Positions 4,815 to 16,877 of a stretch of 20,000 nt of DNA are shown here, piece after piece. The stretch's first letter is position 1; every line of letters begins with the position of its first letter. Source of the stretch: an uncultured virus (IMG/VR IMGVR_UViG_2061766007_000547) (lineage: Duplodnaviria > Heunggongvirae > Uroviricota > Caudoviricetes); the IMG/VR virus record IMGVR_UViG_2061766007_000547; one strand, 5' to 3'. The position numbers and the translations under genes are program-made. Below the pieces are notes generated by a model. That model saw only the letters and a list, made by a program, of their open reading frames with translations. It was not told the DNA's origin and searched no databases.

Positions 4815-4833
4815 GAGGGGCATTACGCCCCTC
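4815..4833 (-). other. intergenic stem-loop GAGGGGC-GTAAT-GCCCCTC (no U-tract)
   Basis: Perfect 7 bp inverted repeat just after the DUF932 stop codon. Confidence 0.6.
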
Positions 4834-5772: not shown

Positions 5773-5813
5773 AATAATTATCCTCCTTAAATTTGTGTTT
5801 GTGTTATAGTGAT

Positions 5814-5839
5814 ATCAAAGGGGCAACCGCCCCTCTGAT
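5814..5839 (-). other. intergenic stem-loop ATCAGAGGGGC-GGTT-GCCCCTTTGAT
   Basis: 11 bp stem (one G-U on the minus strand) just after the DUF5688 stop codon. Confidence 0.6.
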
Positions 5840-6654
5840 TAGAACTCGTATGCTCTCCATGAGAGCACATCTGCCTCAGGAACTTCTGAGCTATTAATTT
5901 CCTTTACCATCTGTGTAAGCTCCTGCTTAGTAATATCAGTTGCCTTAGACATAACAATACATTCATGAATTGAACTGGGGATTACATAATAACCTTCAGG
6001 GAACATCGCGCCCAATTCATTTCGCATGGTGATCGCTCCGATTGCTGCGTACATCTTTGTGTTGCTTGTGATAACATACTGAGGCAATGCATCGGCGGGA
6101 GTTGGCGGTAACATATCGGGATCAATGCCCATGCTAGCCATAGATGCCTTGATCACATCCAGCATATTAAGAATACTAATCTGTACGTTAGCCTCGGTTG
6201 CTTCCATTGCGTCTGCGAACAGGATACATTCAGGCACTCCCCACATATCAACTAATGACTGATTTACTTTTGCAGCCATGCCTCTGTCAAGCTGGATATA
6301 AGGCACCAGAATAAGATCATCAAAGCCATAGTCTGCGGCTGACCTGAATACATCTGCCTTTGTTTTTTCGTTATATAACCTTAACCTGAGATTTCCTTTG
6401 ACAACGTTATAATCTGTCATAGCGTCAATGCTGATGTTGGGCAGAGGCTGAGCTTTGATCTCCTCTATTTCTTTTACCGCCTGATCTACTGTATATCCCT
6501 CATCATACATATCCTCTATGTGAATCGATGGAGATATGTTGGCTCCTACATTTACCACTATACACTTCCGCTTAACGCCATTTGCCTTTTCCGCATCCTT
6601 GACTATTCCGTCGACCTGTTCTGCTACTGCATTGATAAAATCTTCTTTAGTCAT
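5839..6654 (-). CDS. DUF5688-family protein
   Basis: KANGV..ISPSIHI N-terminus; YVITS, YYVIPSSIHE, MVKEIN..EV...DVLS C-terminal motifs; AAGGAGG SD. Confidence 0.8.
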   Translation of the reverse strand: MTKEDFINAVAEQVDGIVKDAEKANGVKRKCIVVNVGANISPSIHIEDMYDEGYTVDQAVKEIEEIKAQPLPNISIDAMTDYNVVKGNLRLRLYNEKTKADVFRSAADYGFDDLILVPYIQLDRGMAAKVNQSLVDMWGVPECILFADAMEATEANVQISILNMLDVIKASMASMGIDPDMLPPTPADALPQYVITSNTKMYAAIGAITMRNELGAMFPEGYYVIPSSIHECIVMSKATDITKQELTQMVKEINSSEVPEADVLSWRAYEF

Positions 6655-6683
6655 GTTTTTATCCTCCTTAATTTTCCGTTTGT

Positions 6684-6762
6684 TAGAGTGCGTTTATACT
6701 CCCTAGCCACTACGCCCATGTGATATTTGCCGTTCACATGCCTTAAGAGACGGCTTGGTAAT
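6684..6762 (-). ncRNA. candidate structured RNA element, copy 1 (family unknown)
   Basis: Intergenic; shares invariant blocks with 7656-7731; stems show compensatory changes between the copies. Confidence 0.6.
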
Positions 6763-7221
6763 TTATTCTTCGTCTTTCTTAGGACTGAAGAATTTTTCGA
6801 TATCTTCCTTGAACTGCTCAACAAGCTGTTCTTCTGTTCTCGGATATATATTGCAGTCTCCGTAGTTTCTGTCGTATCCAAGACAAACCAGAACTTTCTT
6901 TCCGATTAGCTCGTCAGTTATACTTTCGATGCCCGCCATATCATATGCCTTAATAAACATCTTGACAGTATGCAGATCGTCTGCGTTCTTGATTTCAATG
7001 ACTGCCAGCATAAACTCTTCGCTTCCATATCCGAAGCGTTCCCATATGCCGCACTCAGCGAATGGCTCTCCGATCATCAGCTGCTTAAGATCATGCAGTA
7101 TAACTCCCCTTGCAGTTTCCTCATACTTCTTGCATTCCTCTTCTGTTGCAAAAACATGCCCATCATCTGCCTCATATCCTGTGATAATTTCTTCTGTCTT
7201 TGTGTACTTAAGTGTTTTCAT
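6763..7221 (-). CDS. hypothetical protein, 152 aa
   Basis: AAAGGAGG SD; YEADDGHVFATEEECKKYE N-terminal motif. Confidence 0.85.
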   Translation of the reverse strand: MKTLKYTKTEEIITGYEADDGHVFATEEECKKYEETARGVILHDLKQLMIGEPFAECGIWERFGYGSEEFMLAVIEIKNADDLHTVKMFIKAYDMAGIESITDELIGKKVLVCLGYDRNYGDCNIYPRTEEQLVEQFKEDIEKFFSPKKDEE

Positions 7222-7237
7222 GCTTTAGCCTCCTTTG

Positions 7238-7630
7238 TTATGCTACGTTTGACCATTTGCCGTTTTCAAAATGAAGAACAGCTTCGTACTCACTACGCTC
7301 AAAGATTTCGATGCAACCTGAACTTTCTATATCATATTTTTCACATTCTGCCTTAATTGCTTCAAGATCTGTGGTGGAAGTTATCGGAGTCATATACGTA
7401 GGCTCGCCTTTTTCACGCTGGACTGCATTTCTCCATACTACAATTCCATATTCAGTCGTAAGAGTATAAGCATGTCCGTCAAAATAATAGGTATCTCCAT
7501 TTTTGGCTGTTTTTAACCATTTGTTCATGTTAGATAAGTAACTTCTCATTGTCTTTTTTGTAATAAAGTTACAGCAGCAATATCCTCTTAATAGTTCTTC
7601 AAATGCGTCTTTGATTTTCTGTTTTGTCAT
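7238..7630 (-). CDS. hypothetical protein, 130 aa
   Basis: AAAGGAGG SD. Confidence 0.8.
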   Translation of the reverse strand: MTKQKIKDAFEELLRGYCCCNFITKKTMRSYLSNMNKWLKTAKNGDTYYFDGHAYTLTTEYGIVVWRNAVQREKGEPTYMTPITSTTDLEAIKAECEKYDIESSGCIEIFERSEYEAVLHFENGKWSNVA

Positions 7631-7655
7631 GTTATCCCTCCTTTAAAATATTGGC

Positions 7656-7731
7656 TAGAGTGCATTTATACTCCCTAGGCGCCACCCCCATACAGCTTCC
7701 GTCTGTATGCCTTAAGAGACGGCTTGATGAC
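7656..7731 (-). ncRNA. candidate structured RNA element, copy 2 (family unknown)
   Basis: Intergenic direct repeat of 6684-6762 with covarying stems. Confidence 0.6.
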
Positions 7732-7734
7732 CTG

Positions 7735-8007
7735 TCAGTTCTCGTCCAGACCTTCGGGACACTGCTCTACAGCGTGAATTTCCTTTTCACATTCGTCACA
7801 TATCCACTCTCCGTTATCGCCTGCTACAAGTGCTATACAGTCCTGACATCTTATTTGTTTGCTGTCCATATTATCTCCTTCCAACGGACACTCCTCGTCC
7901 GTTATGTTATGTATTTCGTCCATACATTCAGTGCAGAGCCAGTTGCCCTCTTCGTCCTGCTCACAATAGCTGCACTTTTTACATCTGACCATTTCCTTTG
8001 TGGTCAT
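7735..8007 (-). CDS. small Cys-rich protein with two tandem CxxC...WxCxxC..EIH..CP repeats (probable metal-binding)
   Basis: Internal duplication visible in the translation; GGAGG SD; ATGA overlap with the 594 aa gene. Confidence 0.85.
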   Translation of the reverse strand: MTTKEMVRCKKCSYCEQDEEGNWLCTECMDEIHNITDEECPLEGDNMDSKQIRCQDCIALVAGDNGEWICDECEKEIHAVEQCPEGLDEN

Positions 8008-9793: not shown

Positions 9794-9886
9794 TTACCTC
9801 CTTTTAGCCTGTTCTTTTTCATCATGCAATAGCCAACCAATAACTAAACCTATGATATACAATATTCCCGCGCCGATTAGCTCCAT
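9794..9886 (-). CDS. small single-TM membrane peptide, 30 aa (MELIGAGILYIIGLVIGWLLHDEKEQAKRR)
   Basis: TAAGGAGGT SD; hydrophobic stretch; its end contains the SD of the 594 aa gene; not in ORF track. Confidence 0.75.
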   Translation of the reverse strand: MELIGAGILYIIGLVIGWLLHDEKEQAKRR

Positions 9887-9921: not shown

Positions 9922-10914
9922 TCACATCAATCCCATTCTTTTTTTATCTCTGTACCACGACCAATAGTCGTCGTCAGATGCCGTATCCAGATAGCACTGC
10001 AGGACATTTCCGTATGGTAGTGTCGGGTGATCTTCAGCCCAATAGCCAATCGCCTCTATTCTGGACATTGCCTCGTAAATTTCTTCCTGATTTTCGAGGT
10101 TCTCGTCGATATATTCGACGATATATACATCATCATAATACCAGTGTTCATATGATGATCTCTTATTGCTGTATAATGATGTATATACGGGTTTATATTC
10201 TATGTACTCAAATTGTTCTACATCCGCAGCTGCCTTGATTAATTTTTCTGCGGCGTCGATTGCTGCAATCATTTCTTCCCATACAACATATTCATCTGTC
10301 GTATGTGCCTTATAATATCCACAACTGAGATTGACACCAGCAATCCCCGTTTCTGGACAGAAGTTGCTTATATCTGAGAACGATCCGTGATCTTCTTTCC
10401 AGCCCGTTACCTTTGCGCACCACTCATGGAACTCCTTATTATTATCGTAGTAGTACACAAGATCATCTGCGTGTGCTCTGTCTAACTCAATAAAGAATTT
10501 CTCTGCGCCAAGCATTGTCAGCATAGTTTTGTTCCTGCATAATAGGTCACTACCTACACCGCCAACTTCCTCGTCCTCGCAGAAGATAACAGTCGGTCTT
10601 AACCCTCGTTCAGCTATGAGCCGCTGTATCATATAGACACCACAACGATCGTCACCTCCTATCCCTTGTGGTGACGATATGATTGTTGCTGTGCCGTCGT
10701 TTGTGATATCCACACGCTGCACTGGAGTAGGATGTACTGTATCCATATGAGCTGTGACTACCACGCCTGCGCTTCCCTCTGCGTAGATATATCCGTCTGC
10801 AACGATTGGCTTATATCCGTTGCATTTTAACCATTCAGGCAGATACACCTTTAACTGATCCTGTGTCATTTTGCAAATTTCGATAAAATGTTTAATTCCC
10901 TTCTTTAACCTCAT
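9922..10914 (-). CDS. zinc-dependent peptidase/amidohydrolase, clan MH (M20/M28-like)
   Basis: Metal-ligand motifs TAHMDTV, GGDDRCG, EDEEVG, IELDR, SDIS, GYYKAHT in canonical order. Confidence 0.85.
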   Translation of the reverse strand: MRLKKGIKHFIEICKMTQDQLKVYLPEWLKCNGYKPIVADGYIYAEGSAGVVVTAHMDTVHPTPVQRVDITNDGTATIISSPQGIGGDDRCGVYMIQRLIAERGLRPTVIFCEDEEVGGVGSDLLCRNKTMLTMLGAEKFFIELDRAHADDLVYYYDNNKEFHEWCAKVTGWKEDHGSFSDISNFCPETGIAGVNLSCGYYKAHTTDEYVVWEEMIAAIDAAEKLIKAAADVEQFEYIEYKPVYTSLYSNKRSSYEHWYYDDVYIVEYIDENLENQEEIYEAMSRIEAIGYWAEDHPTLPYGNVLQCYLDTASDDDYWSWYRDKKRMGLM

Positions 10915-12876: not shown

Positions 12877-12905
12877 ATTATAGACGTTTAATACATTTTT
12901 GTCAA
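12877..12905 (-). promoter_or_regulatory. sigma-A/sigma70 consensus promoter TTGACA-N17-TATAAT
   Basis: Minus strand reads TTGACA aaaatgtattaaacgtc TATAAT: perfect boxes, 17 bp spacer, intergenic. Confidence 0.9.
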
Positions 12906-13171
12906 GGCGTATTTTTCGCCTTGTTATCTATTAGCAACTTTACATTAGCAAGAATTTCTTCGTTGCCTTGCTTTAACTTTTTAATGCCAGTCATTAGACG
13001 TTCGTTCTGCTCTGACAGCTTCTGCAAGCGCTGTTCTGACAATTCACATAGAATTGCCAGATCATTTACCAACCCGTCTATATCCTGTTGTCCCTTGACG
13101 TAGCGCATTAGAAACTCCGCTGCAAGTCCTGGGTGTCTGGCTGCGATTTCCTTTGCCTTTGTTCTGTTCAT
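12902..13171 (-). CDS. hypothetical protein, 89 aa, coiled-coil-like C-terminus; paralog of 13168-13347
   Basis: AAGGAGGT SD; MNRTKAKEIAARHPGLAA...LAILC. Confidence 0.85.
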   Translation of the reverse strand: MNRTKAKEIAARHPGLAAEFLMRYVKGQQDIDGLVNDLAILCELSEQRLQKLSEQNERLMTGIKKLKQGNEEILANVKLLIDNKAKNTP

Positions 13172-13347
13172 ACAATTACCTCCTTTTCAAGCTGCGCTAT
13201 ACGCTCTTCTCTTACATCGCAGAGAATAGCCAAACAGTCAATTACATCAATAATTCTCACTTTTGGATCACGTGTGAGACTGCTAATAATGCTCGCTGCA
13301 AGTCCATGATGCTTGTCAGCGATTGCTTTTGCGTCTGTTCTTTTCAT
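13168..13347 (-). CDS. hypothetical protein, 59 aa; paralog of 12902-13171
   Basis: GAGGTG SD; MKRTDAKAIADKHHGLAA...LAILCD; ATGA overlap; not in ORF track. Confidence 0.85.
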   Translation of the reverse strand: MKRTDAKAIADKHHGLAASIISSLTRDPKVRIIDVIDCLAILCDVREERIAQLEKEVIV

Positions 13348-13362
13348 GACGTCACCTCTCTT

Positions 13363-13551
13363 TTACCACCACTGACCTGTGAATGCCAGTGAATCTATAT
13401 CTACATTTTTATCACAGATAATATCATCTATACCTTCTGTTGCTTCGCGATATGTATCCGCTGTGAAGATCATTTCCCTGTTATCATACACCTCATAGTG
13501 TCCATATATTTGGACTATGGTGTATCCCTCATATTTATATGTTCTGCCCAT
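13363..13551 (-). CDS. hypothetical protein, 62 aa
   Basis: AAGGAGG SD. Confidence 0.8.
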   Translation of the reverse strand: MGRTYKYEGYTIVQIYGHYEVYDNREMIFTADTYREATEGIDDIICDKNVDIDSLAFTGQWW

Positions 13552-16462: not shown

Positions 16463-16665
16463 GCATTCACCTCCATTTTGTGCACTCTGTCCGATATACA
16501 GACAACCATTCTGCGCATAGTGCATGCATCAAGCTTTATCTTGAGCGCACGGCACTCAGCTATAACATACTTTGCAACCTGTTCCTTGCGTTCTCTTACA
16601 CATAAGCCAGACAACTTCGCAAGGCGCTTTCCGTTTGTAACAATTCGCTTTGAAATAACGTCCAT
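16459..16665 (-). CDS. hypothetical basic protein, 68 aa
   Basis: GGAGG SD before MDVISK. Confidence 0.75.
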   Translation of the reverse strand: MDVISKRIVTNGKRLAKLSGLCVRERKEQVAKYVIAECRALKIKLDACTMRRMVVCISDRVHKMEVNA

Positions 16666-16678
16666 AATCATTCCTCCG

Positions 16679-16735
16679 TTTCCCTATGGATTGCCATTAT
16701 ATGTATGATTTCCCTATAGATTGCCATTATATGTA
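16679..16735. repeat. tandem direct repeat, 2 x 27 bp (period 30): TTTCCCTAT(G/A)GATTGCCATTATATGTA
   Basis: Read directly; one mismatch between copies. Confidence 0.9.
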
Positions 16736-16877
16736 AATGCAATCTATACAAGTATGTAATATACATACTTTACAATGTGCATATTGATATAATATGCCCA
16801 TTACAAAACGTGTATATTAACAATCGGAGCCTATTATAAAAAACAGCTCCATGTTGTGTGCGGCTGGTATAAAATCA

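What the first reader, a model, noticed from the sequence alone, without database searches (positions are those of the whole stretch)
6684..7731. Twice-repeated intergenic element with compensatory base-pair changes: candidate new structured RNA
Seen (minus strand). Copy 1 (6762->6684): AUUACC AAGCCGUCUCUUAAGG CAUGUGA ACGGCAAAUA UCACAUG GG CGUAGU GG CUAGGGAGUAUAAACGCACUCUA. Copy 2 (7731->7656): GUCAUC AAGCCGUCUCUUAAGG CAUACAG ACGGAAG CUGUAUG GG GGUGGC GC CUAGGGAGUAUAAAUGCACUCUA. The variable positions largely preserve pairing. The inner stem CAUGUGA/UCACAUG becomes CAUACAG/CUGUAUG (four double changes). The enclosing stem AUUAC/GUAGU becomes GUCAU/GUGGC (two double changes plus C-G to U-G). 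The G-U pairs favour the minus strand. The loop-start ACGG is kept in both copies and is complementary to the invariant CCGU, a possible pseudoknot or switch that competes with a GCC/GGC hairpin. A GAGU/ACUC hairpin follows shortly before the SD of the next gene. Each copy starts within a few bases of a stop codon. Inference: a multi-stem mRNA element (ribozyme, processing site, riboswitch-like or protein-binding RNA). I could not match it from memory to hammerhead, twister, pistol, HDV-like or c-di-GMP consensus. The copies also form direct repeats around a two-gene cassette (6763-7630).
Basis: partly seen in the sequence, partly recalled or inferred. Interest (0 to 1): 0.85.

Follow-up and report, generated by a model that had tools for sequence, protein, structure and literature searches.

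The report
Pseudoknotted intergenic RNA in rumen phage
A conserved stretch of about 80 bases between genes of uncultured cattle-rumen phages very probably folds into a knotted RNA that matches no catalogued RNA family, and it most likely tunes expression of the gene that follows it.

Summary
Two ~80-nt copies lie on the minus strand at 6680-6760 and 7652-7729, and neither matches Rfam. I found two more members in other rumen phage contigs (L006, L083).

Across the four members, a four-helix model pairs 79 of 79 cells, and 10 of 20 pairs keep pairing through changes on both sides:
- 7-bp hairpin P2: 6 of 7 pairs covary.
- Pseudoknot between the 5' GCCGU and the P2 loop ACGGC: 2 of 5 pairs covary. 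This was predicted from the window alone.
- A 3-bp mini-hairpin: 2 of 3 pairs covary.
- An invariant hairpin P3.

The element always lies between a stop codon (5-11 nt upstream) and the next Shine-Dalgarno site. It sits inside an early operon of a tailed phage, mostly in front of a DUF5688 gene. The upstream stop is in frame with the element in 4 of 4 full members, and the frame closes at an invariant UAG GGA GUA UAA.

Best reading (about 0.4): a cis-acting mRNA operator that sets translation or stability of the downstream cistron.

Rivals: a hairpin-plus-promoter cassette, a processing or stabiliser site, and a pseudoknot-driven readthrough signal.

The family is narrow (4 full sequences) and no RNA data exist. 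It is a real, uncatalogued motif whose function is open.

The parts
6680..6760 (-). Element copy 1, whole (covariance-model hit, alignment columns 1-81)
   Evidence: R1 hit at 106.4 bits; sequence
7652..7729 (-). Element copy 2, whole. It has a 3-nt shorter P2 loop.
   Evidence: R1 hit at 94.7 bits; sequence
6763..6765 (-). TAA stop of the upstream 152-aa ORF, 8 nt before S1 and in frame with the element
6750..6754 (-). Copy 1, S1 5' strand (GCCGU) of the pseudoknot
   Evidence: columns 7-11 pair with 28-32; 2 of 5 pairs covary
6741..6749 (-). Copy 1, L1: invariant CUCUUAAGG, which is anti-SD-like (CUCUU)
   Evidence: invariant in 4 of 4 members; pairs with the SD in constrained folds
6717..6740 (-). 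Copy 1, P2 hairpin: 7-bp stem at 6734-6740 with 6717-6723. Its loop begins with the S1 3' strand ACGGC at 6729-6733.
   Evidence: 6 of 7 pairs covary and 28 of 28 cells are paired
6705..6716 (-). Copy 1, 3-bp mini-hairpin (columns 45-47 with 54-56), closed by a G-U pair
   Evidence: found by alifold; 2 of 3 pairs covary
6682..6705 (-). Copy 1, invariant 3' block UAGGGAGUAUAAAYGCACUCUA(A/G)C. It contains the SD-like GGGAG, a TATAAA, the in-frame UAG..UAA pair, and the P3 hairpin (6685-6702).
6652..6669 (-). SD (AAGGAGG, 6663-6669) and ATG (6652-6654) of the DUF5688 gene served by copy 1
7735..7737 (-). TGA stop of the upstream zinc-ribbon ORF, 11 nt before S1 and in frame with copy 2
7689..7723 (-). 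Copy 2 pseudoknot core: S1 5' strand 7719-7723, L1 7710-7718, P2 7703-7709 with 7689-7695, loop ACGG 7699-7702
7654..7688 (-). Copy 2 mini-hairpin (7677-7688) and invariant 3' block with P3 (7657-7674)
7628..7643 (-). SD and ATG of the 130-aa ORF served by copy 2
6763..7630 (-). Two-gene cassette between the copies (130-aa and 152-aa ORFs). Related contigs lack the 130-aa gene.
   Evidence: the joint 7228->7637 appears in contigs of runs X5 and X7
12877..12905 (-). Consensus sigma-70-type promoter (TTGACA-17-TATAAT) that probably drives the operon containing both copies
   Evidence: 12 of 12 match; no minus-strand terminator-like site is listed between it and 4837

Best explanation
The element is a cis-acting structured segment of a polycistronic phage mRNA.

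Architecture. It forms an H-type pseudoknot followed by two hairpins:
- S1, 5 bp, stacked on P2, 7 bp, with a conserved 9-nt loop CUCUUAAGG.
- A 3-bp mini-hairpin.
- An invariant hairpin P3 that carries an SD-like GGGAG.

Position. It fills the whole gap between the stop codon of one early gene and the Shine-Dalgarno site of the next.

Function. I think it most likely sets expression of the downstream cistron after transcription.

Proposed working (inferred, not shown):
- The pseudoknot holds the anti-SD-like CUCUU of its loop out of reach.
- P3 occupies the second anti-SD-like ACUCU.
- The true SD therefore stays open.
- When S1 is melted, CUCUU can pair with the SD. S1 could be melted by a ribosome terminating 5-11 nt upstream, or its stability could be changed by a bound factor.
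- The start-less GGGAG may also hold a 30S subunit and stabilise the downstream RNA.

Shown: the repeat, the helices and their covariation, the fixed placement, the strand, and the absence from Rfam. Inferred: that it acts as RNA, and the switch logic.
For: Structure:
- Four members pair 79 of 79 cells in 20 pairs; 10 pairs have changes on both sides. 0 of 500 shuffles reach this, and slid controls pair 27-49% of cells.
- The pseudoknot was proposed from the window alone and then passed in L006 with two double changes.
- 49 of 81 columns are invariant. Most differences fall in helices.
- The neighbouring DUF5688 proteins are only 42-56% identical.
- The invariant G-U pairs G45-U56 and G59-U76 would be C-A on the other strand.

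Placement:
- The element lies in the same place in 4 of 4 members: a stop codon 5-11 nt before S1 and an SD 15-20 nt after the block.
- It lies inside an operon, downstream of a consensus promoter, with no terminator-like site listed between them.
- The host record G001 is a tailed phage and holds one copy in 69.5 kb. That number is typical of a gene-specific operator rather than a promoter class.

Switch logic: blocking S1 and L1, as in a formed pseudoknot, raises the SD unpaired probability in 3 of 4 members: 0.51 to 0.70, 0.42 to 0.83 and 0.29 to 0.88. L006 is unchanged at 0.45 to 0.46.
Against: - There are only four full sequences from a narrow lineage, and L083 looks like a mosaic of the other types. 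Formal covariation statistics are not possible, and the shuffle control ignores relatedness.
- Folding energies are not better than shuffles.
- No RNA-seq holder was offered, so transcription through the element is only inferred.
- The CUCUU-SD pairing cannot be tested by covariation, because both sides are invariant and any SD pairs with CUCU.
- L006 shows no SD effect in the fold test.
- The 22-24 invariant bases of the 3' block, which include TATAAA 33-38 nt before the ATG, are more than the model needs. They fit a protein or polymerase site as well.
- Three different downstream genes are served, so the element is not a classical gene-specific riboswitch.
Confidence: 0.4

Rival explanations
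1. Composite DNA regulatory cassette. The invariant 3' block is a promoter, with a -10-like TATAAA read by host RNA polymerase helped by a phage factor, or by a phage-specific sigma or polymerase. The hairpins upstream of it belong to the end of the preceding transcription unit. This would resemble the PeSL/PmSL terminator-promoter cassettes that shuffle small genes in T4-type phages.
For: - TATAAA lies 33-38 nt before the ATG in all four members, a normal promoter-to-start distance.
- A 22-24-nt invariant block suits a polymerase or factor site.
- The element precedes three unrelated genes, and the two copies bracket a variable cassette. Contigs of two runs lack the 130-aa gene, and the 3' block appears in further contexts in runs X5 and X8.
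- Two other gaps have a hairpin followed by TATAAC or TATAAT about 30 nt before an ATG: window 5773-5838 and L006 6780-6810.
- G001 encodes an RNA polymerase alpha-CTD-like protein.
- PeSL features were taken from PMC4122927 (passages).
Against: - No -35 hexamer at 16-18 nt. The promoter scan lists no site at either copy on the minus strand.
- The hairpin has no T-run and is not listed as terminator-like.
- The reading does not explain the covariation of the pseudoknot and the mini-hairpin.
- It does not explain why the -10 would sit in the loop of a 5-bp hairpin whose arms are invariant and complementary.
- There is only 1 copy in 69.5 kb of G001 and 2 in the 20-kb window, which is few for a phage promoter class.
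- No sigma factor or RNA polymerase was found among 57 window and G001 ORFs scanned in Pfam.
Confidence: 0.22
2. Intercistronic RNA processing and stabiliser site. The mRNA is cut in or next to the pseudoknot, either by a host or phage endoribonuclease or by self-cleavage as a new small ribozyme. The downstream fragment is then protected by 5'-proximal hairpins and by a ribosome held on the start-less SD-like GGGAG. This uncouples the stability of neighbouring cistrons.
For: - The position is intercistronic, and sequence and structure are conserved.
- GGGAG has no AUG, GUG or UUG 4-12 nt downstream (reading).
- SD-like sequences without productive translation stabilise Bacillus and phage SP82 mRNAs (review PMC7509114, passage seen; details of Hue et al. 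1995 are recalled, as the paper is not held).
- Many invariant bases next to covarying helices and a pseudoknot is the usual look of small ribozymes.
Against: - The stems are 7, 5, 5 and 3 bp, too short for RNase III-type sites.
- No match to hammerhead, twister, pistol, hatchet, HDV-like or any other Rfam model even at E<=10.
- No read-end data are available.
- No cleavage motif can be named.
Confidence: 0.15
3. Recoding signal. The pseudoknot, placed 5-11 nt after the stop codon, makes a fraction of ribosomes read through the stop (or otherwise senses termination). They then translate 17-20 further codons through the structure and stop at the invariant tandem UAG GGA GUA UAA about 40 nt before the next start. 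This would remodel the RNA or deliver ribosomes to the next gene.
For: - The upstream stop is in frame with the element in 4 of 4 full members although the upstream genes are unrelated. The spacers to AAG/AAA CCG are 6, 9, 6 and 3 nt. The frame stays open to the invariant UAG and a second in-frame UAA. The only indel is 3 nt. Chance of equal phase is about 1 in 27.
- A fifth junction, in a run X5 contig, is also in frame.
- The geometry (stop, short spacer, H-type pseudoknot) is that of viral readthrough and frameshift stimulators (PMC3835772 and PMC4178896, abstracts in the listing).
- G001 carries a tRNA-like gene with anticodon UUA 4.8 kb upstream.
Against: - A sixth junction, in a run X7 contig, is out of frame by one base.
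- The stops are a mix of UAA and UGA, and UAA is a strong terminator.
- The same short basic tail would be added to four unrelated proteins.
- Peptide similarity is no more than the nucleotide conservation dictates.
- A second frame is also open through the element in 3 of 4 members.
- The tRNA scores below Rfam's threshold (20.1 against 29 bits), would not read UGA, and would also read the closing UAG/UAA.
- I recall no pseudoknot-stimulated readthrough in bacteria.
Confidence: 0.1
4. DNA-level site. The overlapping inverted repeats are a binding or recombination site for a protein (an operator, an attC-like folded site, or a homing-endonuclease target), and the repeats serve cassette exchange.
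For: - All 48 cells of S1 and P2 are Watson-Crick, so they do not by themselves tell RNA from DNA.
- GCCGT..ACGGC and ACCGC..GCGGT are symmetric half-sites.
- L1 contains the palindrome CTTAAG.
- The copies flank a variable cassette.
Against: - Two copies in one genome have different P2 sequences, so P2 is selected as a structure and not as a read-out sequence.
- The cassette indel ends lie at the SD sequences (7228/7637, with 8 shared letters) and not in the element.
- The 5' and 3' blocks are not inverted repeats of each other, as attC ends are (reading).
- No integrase or recombinase family was found among the 57 window and G001 ORFs scanned in Pfam.
- G-U pairs are needed for two of the helices.
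Confidence: 0.05

Closest known systems
PeSL / PmSL cassettes of T4-type phages (composite terminator-promoter motifs; PMC4122927, PMC2839356)
   Same: Short, well-conserved intergenic motifs that combine a stem-loop with a -10-like box. They are repeated in front of small genes of unknown function in plastic early regions, with gene gain and loss next to them (paper passages).
   Different: PeSLs have a G-rich/C-rich terminator-type stem and a sigma-70-like -35/N17/-10 promoter, or a Mot box. Here there is no -35, no T-run, a pseudoknot and a mini-hairpin with covariation, and only 1-2 copies per genome.
Pseudoknot stimulators of stop-codon readthrough or -1 frameshifting (e.g. the MuLV gag-pol signal)
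   Same: An H-type pseudoknot begins a few nucleotides (5-11 here) after the recoding codon, and the reading frame stays open through the structure.
   Different: Those signals lead into a long functional ORF, whereas here the frame closes after 17-20 codons at tandem stops. The stops are UAA or UGA, the hosts are bacteria, and L1 is long (9 nt) and invariant. No extended product is known.
5' mRNA stabilisers of Firmicutes built on a start-less SD-like sequence (SP82 polypurine stabiliser, cryIIIA STAB-SD; partly recalled)
   Same: A strong SD-like purine run (GGGAG) with no start codon behind it, upstream of the real SD, in a phage early mRNA.
   Different: Known stabilisers need no pseudoknot. 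In SP82 the stabiliser is created by an RNase III cut in a long hairpin, and no such hairpin exists here.
Pseudoknotted translational operators (T4 gene 32 leader; E. coli rpsO/S15 and alpha-operon/S4 leaders; recalled)
   Same: A pseudoknot upstream of or around the ribosome-binding site of a single gene, in 1-2 copies per genome, controlling initiation.
   Different: Those are bound by the protein they regulate and are gene-specific. Here three unrelated genes are served, two further hairpins lie between the knot and the SD, and no binding protein is known. DUF5688 has a confident model (pLDDT 94) but no recognisable fold.
RNase III processing sites between the early genes of T7 and SP82 (recalled)
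   Same: Similar structured elements repeated between the stop codon and the next SD within one early polycistronic mRNA.
   Different: Those are hairpins of about 20 bp with internal loops. Here the longest helix is 7 bp (12 bp if S1 stacks on P2).

Membership tests
Any Rfam 15 family (4227 models) | Covariance-model score at or above the family's gathering threshold | tested here: not met
   0 matches over the whole window. At E<=10 over 6500-7900, the only match is an IS009 hit inside a coding region at 17.6 against 117 bits.
Small self-cleaving ribozymes (hammerhead, twister, twister-sister, pistol, hatchet, HDV-like) | Match to the family's consensus core and helices | tested here: not met
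   No hit to any of these Rfam models even at E<=10. The helix order here, with a 5' strand pairing into the loop of the next hairpin, differs from pistol and HDV by reading.
Small self-cleaving ribozymes (any, including an unknown class) | Site-specific self-cleavage in Mg2+ | not testable with these tools
   Needs in vitro transcription and a cleavage assay.
PeSL / PmSL cassette | Terminator-type stem-loop (G-rich stem, C-rich return, T-run) | tested here: not met
   P2 is A/U-rich and is followed by GGG or GCC. No terminator-like site is listed at 6684-6762 or 7656-7731 on the minus strand.
PeSL / PmSL cassette | Sigma-70-like promoter (-35, about 17 nt, -10) or Mot box plus -10 | tested here: not met
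   TATAAA is present, but no -35 lies at 16-18 nt. No promoter-like site is listed at either copy on the minus strand. Mot-box-type activation is not testable.
PeSL / PmSL cassette | Repeated next to variable small ORFs, with indels between relatives | tested here: met
   The copies flank a two-gene cassette. The 130-aa gene is absent from contigs of runs X5 and X7.
Recoding pseudoknot (readthrough stimulator) | H-type pseudoknot starting a few nt downstream of the stop codon | tested here: met
   The distance from the stop to S1 is 8, 11, 8 and 5 nt. The pseudoknot has covariation in 2 of 5 pairs.
Recoding pseudoknot (readthrough stimulator) | Frame open beyond the stop into a functional extension | tested here: inconclusive
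   In frame in 4 of 4 full members, and in 5 of 6 when read-derived junctions are counted. The extension is only 17-20 codons and ends at tandem stops.
Recoding pseudoknot (readthrough stimulator) | Extended protein product | not testable with these tools
   Needs reporters or proteomics.
Intrinsic (Rho-independent) terminator | G+C-rich hairpin followed by a U-run | tested here: not met
   One search lists none at the element. By reading, no U-run follows P2, the mini-hairpin or P3.
Integron attC-like folded recombination site | Conserved inverted core sites at the two ends that pair with each other; an integrase nearby | tested here: not met
   The 5' and 3' blocks are not reverse complements of each other (reading). 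No integrase was found among the 57 window and G001 ORFs scanned in Pfam. The cassette indel ends lie at the SD, not in the element.
SD-like 5' stabiliser (STAB-SD type) | Strong SD-like sequence without a start codon at initiation distance | tested here: met
   GGGAG is invariant in 4 of 4 members, and no AUG, GUG or UUG lies 4-12 nt downstream (reading).
SD-like 5' stabiliser (STAB-SD type) | Raises the half-life of downstream RNA | not testable with these tools
   Needs half-life measurements.
T4 gene 32-type operator | Pseudoknot followed by an unstructured A/U-rich tract reaching the RBS | tested here: not met
   Two hairpins (columns 45-56 and 59-76) lie between the knot and the leader. 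The feature list for this family is recalled.

The most novel reading that the evidence does not exclude
The element is a termination-coupled recoding device of a dsDNA phage. A pseudoknot parked at the mRNA entrance of a ribosome that sits on the stop codon lets some ribosomes read through UAA or UGA. In the relative G001 this might be helped by a phage tRNA with anticodon UUA. The ribosomes then run through the structured spacer in a frame that is kept open, and are released at an invariant tandem stop just ahead of the next gene. In this way, expression of the downstream early gene is set by how the upstream stop is decoded. Pseudoknot-stimulated readthrough has, to my recollection, not been described in bacteria or their phages.
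Probability: 0.1. Interest if true: 0.85.

Novelty: new variant of a known kind. Interest (0 to 1): 0.58.

Why it matters
If it is real as RNA, this is an uncatalogued pseudoknotted cis-element of phage early operons. It is small enough (about 75 nt) for direct mutational, probing and structural work.

It would add a post-transcriptional control point to the largely unknown early genes of abundant rumen phages of about 70-150 kb or more.

The fixed phase between the upstream stop codon and the knot gives a concrete test of whether bacteria and phages use pseudoknot-stimulated readthrough. Such readthrough is known so far from eukaryotic viruses.

If the promoter reading is right instead, the element would define an unusual -35-less promoter with a structured upstream part.

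Tried and rejected
Searches for more members that found none:
- Exact and gapped pattern scans of IMG/VR returned only the record of L006 plus three coding-region chance hits (L170, L175, L176).
- The JGI metagenome scan gave L082 (the same record as L006), L083 (a true member) and L084 (a 3'-block-only chance hit in G+C-rich DNA).
- The GTDB genome scan gave 0.
- A scan of 401 genomes of the family of G002 (the genome holding L090) with up to 3 mismatches gave 3 matches, against 9 for the reversed control pattern. That is chance level.
- blastn against GenBank phages and PLSDB plasmids found nothing, apart from SD-region chance matches.

Covariance model R1:
- In the 80 IMG/VR loci around DUF5688 relatives, only L006 was hit.
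- In 80 genome loci and 80 loci around relatives of the 152-aa protein, there were no hits.

Structures rejected:
- A nested AGCCG/UGGCU stem, paired in 17 of 20 cells with no covariation.

Hypotheses rejected:
- A conjugative leading-region single-strand promoter (Frpo-like). G001 is a tailed phage with portal and terminase.
- Stop-codon reassignment. Stop-to-stop frames of at least 100 codons cover 87% of G001 under the standard code, and reading TAG as sense adds only 2 points; the standard code gave dense ORF calls across its structural module. The 72% for the window, with its many short genes, is less informative.

Other steps that led nowhere:
- No RNA holder was listed among the sequencing runs.
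- The DUF5688 fold search gave no clear match: Foldseek best E 0.05, VIA-align best Z 5.1.
- Literature searches for DUF5688, and for DUF932 with 'leading region', returned nothing.
- Earlier-findings look-ups returned nothing.
- A nucleotide-identity comparison of flanking genes with a gap-friendly aligner was uninformative. Unrelated genes scored 75-80%, so I do not use it.
Full report
OBSERVATION

On the minus strand the window carries two copies of an ~80-nt intergenic element, at 6680-6760 and 7652-7729.
- The 19-nt 5' block and the 23-nt 3' block each occur exactly twice in 20 kb. In 200 shuffles the expected numbers are 0.02 and 0.00.
- The repeat finder lists both blocks.
- Each copy fills the gap between a stop codon and the next SD/ATG. 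Copy 1 lies between TAA 6765-6763 and ATG 6654. Copy 2 lies between TGA 7737-7735 and ATG 7630.
- Minimum-free-energy folding is no better than for shuffled sequence (z -0.08 to -0.92).
- Rfam has nothing, either at gathering scores over the window or at E<=10 over 6500-7900.

CONTEXT

No genome is held for the window. No GenBank phage or PLSDB plasmid is similar at the DNA level.

Nearly all ORFs lie on the minus strand, are small, and have no family. The exceptions are:
- DUF5688 (5839-6654, E 3.5e-42).
- DUF932/TIGR03299 (4837-5772).
- A peptidase-like protein (9922-10914).

A consensus TTGACA-17-TATAAT promoter lies at 12905-12877. No minus-strand terminator-like site is listed from there to 4837. 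Both copies are therefore probably internal to one early operon.

A profile of DUF5688 (A1) recovered 80 IMG/VR loci. One of them, L006, has the element directly before its DUF5688 gene. Its 69.5-kb record (G001) encodes portal, large terminase, tail fibre and exonuclease, so it is a tailed phage. It shows the same local gene order as the window (large unknown protein, peptidase-like protein, element, DUF5688, later DUF932) and holds only one copy of the element.

Runs that hold the window's DNA are bovine-gut and other gut or feces metagenomes. None is RNA.

FAMILY SIZE

A scan of JGI metagenomes with the 3' block gave one further member, L083. This is a 2.8-kb contig with the order element, DUF5688, small ORF, DUF932.

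Every other search found nothing:
- Five further pattern scans of IMG/VR.
- The GTDB genome scan.
- 401 genomes of the family of G002, the genome holding L090, with up to 3 mismatches: 3 hits against 9 for the control pattern.
- Model R1 on 80 genome loci and on 80 loci around relatives of the 152-aa protein.

Contigs of four other runs laid on the window show that the element is more widespread in rumen data than these collections suggest.
- The 3' block has about three times the depth of its flanks in run X5.
- Loose ends show the 3' block before other SD-ATG starts and behind L006-type hairpins.
- Contigs of X5 and X7 (two studies) skip 7229-7636. There, copy 2 directly precedes the 152-aa gene.

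STRUCTURE

Model R1 (from A2) aligned the four members into alignment A4. I tested a model of four helices:
- S1: columns 7-11 with 28-32 (the pseudoknot).
- P2: columns 21-27 with 38-44.
- Mini-hairpin: columns 45-47 with 54-56.
- P3: columns 59-63 with 72-76.

Results for this model:
- It pairs 79 of 79 cells.
- 10 of 20 pairs keep pairing through changes on both sides: P2 6 of 7, S1 2 of 5, mini-hairpin 2 of 3, P3 0 of 5.
- 0 of 500 shuffles reach these values.
- Slid controls pair 27-49% of cells.

The pseudoknot is the important test. It was proposed from the window alone, and L006 then changed GCCGU/ACGGC to ACCGC/GCGGU.

Alternatives fare worse:
- A nested AGCCG/UGGCU stem pairs 17 of 20 cells with no covariation.
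- A small GCC/GGC hairpin that competes with S1 remains compatible.

Other points:
- Two invariant G-U pairs (45-56 and 59-76) would be C-A on the other strand, which favours the mRNA strand.
- 49 of 81 columns are invariant. Most differences fall in helices.
- The adjoining DUF5688 proteins are only 42-56% identical.

Caveats:
- There are only four sequences, and L083 looks like a mosaic of the c1 and L006 types.
- The shuffle control ignores relatedness.
- S1 and P2 are all Watson-Crick, so on their own they do not distinguish RNA from single-stranded DNA.

A NEW REGULARITY

In all four members the upstream stop codon is in the same phase with the element, although the four upstream genes are unrelated.
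- The stop is followed by 6, 9, 6 or 3 nt, and then by AAG/AAA CCG.
- That frame stays open through S1, L1, P2 and the mini-hairpin.
- It closes at the invariant UAG GGA GUA UAA.
- The only length difference between members is 3 nt.
- S1 begins 5-11 nt after the stop. That is where a stimulatory pseudoknot sits in viral readthrough and frameshift signals (PMC3835772, PMC4178896; abstracts seen).

Of two further junctions seen only in low-depth contigs, one (X5) is in frame and one (X7) is shifted by one base. Equal phase in four members has a chance of about 1 in 27. This is suggestive, not conclusive.

G001 carries an ARAGORN tRNA with anticodon UUA. It has a 7-bp acceptor stem and a canonical T-loop but scores only 20.1 bits against Rfam's 29. 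There is no sign of a reassigned stop codon: stop-to-stop frames of at least 100 codons cover 87% of G001 under the standard code, and reading TAG as sense adds only 2 points. The 72% for the window, with its many short genes, is less informative.

MECHANISM

I rank a cis-acting mRNA operator first, at about 0.4. The element fills a stop-to-SD gap inside an operon and is selected as a multi-helix fold on the mRNA strand. It occurs once or twice per genome.

It contains one SD-like and two anti-SD-like invariant runs: GGGAG, CUCUU in L1, and ACUCU in P3.

In constrained folds, locking S1 and L1 as in a formed knot raises the unpaired probability of the true SD in 3 of 4 members. When L1 is free, it pairs with the SD in several predicted structures. 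This step is inference. It cannot be tested by covariation because both partners are invariant.

Rivals:
- A hairpin-plus-promoter cassette like the PeSLs of T4-type phages (passages of PMC4122927), at 0.22. It explains the TATAAA 33-38 nt before each ATG, the invariant block and the variable cassette. It lacks a -35 and a terminator, and it leaves the pseudoknot, the mini-hairpin and the P3 complementarity unexplained.
- A processing and stabiliser site, including an unknown ribozyme, at 0.15.
- The readthrough device, at 0.10.
- A DNA-level protein or recombination site, at 0.05.

An early idea was a single-strand promoter of a conjugative leading region, prompted by DUF932 and DUF5688. I dropped it once G001 proved to be a tailed phage.

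COMPARISON AND NOVELTY

The element is not a member of any Rfam family. It fails two of three PeSL features and is not an intrinsic terminator or an attC site. It meets the geometric feature of recoding pseudoknots but not, so far, the functional ones.

It works most like known pseudoknotted translational operators, or like the structured intercistronic sites of phage early mRNAs. It is not homologous to any of them.

I rate it a new variant of a known kind: a real and uncatalogued motif, from a narrow lineage, with function open.

VERDICT

Interest is 0.58. It would rise sharply if the stop-phase rule holds in a larger family.

Noticed in passing
L173:5000-5092 (+) (= G001 45000-45092): ARAGORN calls a 93-nt tRNA with anticodon UUA (an ochre-suppressor type), with a 7-bp acceptor stem, a canonical T-loop and a long variable arm. 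Rfam's tRNA model gives only 20.1 bits against the 29-bit threshold. Stop-to-stop frame coverage gives no sign of stop-codon reassignment in G001 or the window.
   Followed up: partly
L174:2671-2902 (+) (= G001 62671-62902): A HEARO RNA (RF02033, 115.8 bits, E 3.6e-23) lies in the phage record that carries the L006 copy.
   Followed up: no
L173:13744-14133 (+): A 129-aa phage protein with an RNA polymerase alpha C-terminal-domain-like region (PF03118, E 1.2e-9), 3.8 kb downstream of the element in G001. It may be a transcription factor mimic.
   Followed up: no
window 6640-6765 and 7616-7737 (-); L006 5863-6015; L083 1988-2137: A second reading frame (+1 relative to the upstream ORF) is open from inside the element to a stop that overlaps or abuts the downstream start: AUGA in copy 1 and L006, UAA 1-2 nt before the AUG in copy 2 and L083. 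In 3 of 4 members the downstream ATG is also in phase with the upstream ORF. No consistent start codon or SD for a leader peptide was seen.
   Followed up: partly
window 7229-7636: The 130-aa ORF is a presence/absence polymorphism. Contigs of two runs from two studies join 7228 to 7637 with 8 shared letters at the SD. The same contigs replace 7723-7869 (the end of the zinc-ribbon ORF) by 8-9 other letters.
   Followed up: partly
window 16679-16735: A tandem direct repeat of 27 nt with 30-nt spacing (96% identical) lies in a 291-nt gap at 16526-16816. Each unit holds TATAAT and ATAGGGAAA. It is probably the main regulatory region of a neighbouring operon.
   Followed up: no
window 12877-12905 (-): A perfect TTGACA-17-TATAAT promoter lies in front of a 61-aa membrane-like ORF and the 585-aa ORF.
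   Followed up: no
window 9794-9886 (-): The 133-nt 'gap' between the 330-aa and 594-aa ORFs holds a 30-codon hydrophobic ORF with its own SD, so it is not non-coding.
   Followed up: no
window 5805-5835 and 4815-4833 (-); L006 6768-6795: G+C-rich hairpins lie directly after DUF5688 and DUF932. After DUF5688, in both the window and L006, the hairpin is followed by TATAAC or TATAAT about 30 nt before the next ATG.
   Followed up: partly
L009, L017, L011, L013, L014, L003 (about 140 nt before position 6001): Other phage lineages carry different G+C-rich structured-looking sequences, conserved within pairs, upstream of their DUF5688 genes. For example, L009 and L017 share GAGAGGATCAAGCCCGG inside a stem that has one compensatory change.
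   Followed up: no
window 5839-6654 (-): DUF5688 gives a confident AlphaFold model (pLDDT 94, pTM 0.86) with no clear PDB fold match (Foldseek best E 0.05; VIA-align best Z 5.1). PSSxHE is a nearly invariant motif. At least 582 relatives occur in Lachnospiraceae-type genomes.
   Followed up: partly
window 13118-13187 and 13294-13363: A 70-nt direct repeat (73% identical) covers the starts of two adjacent small minus-strand ORFs, which are probably paralogues.
   Followed up: no
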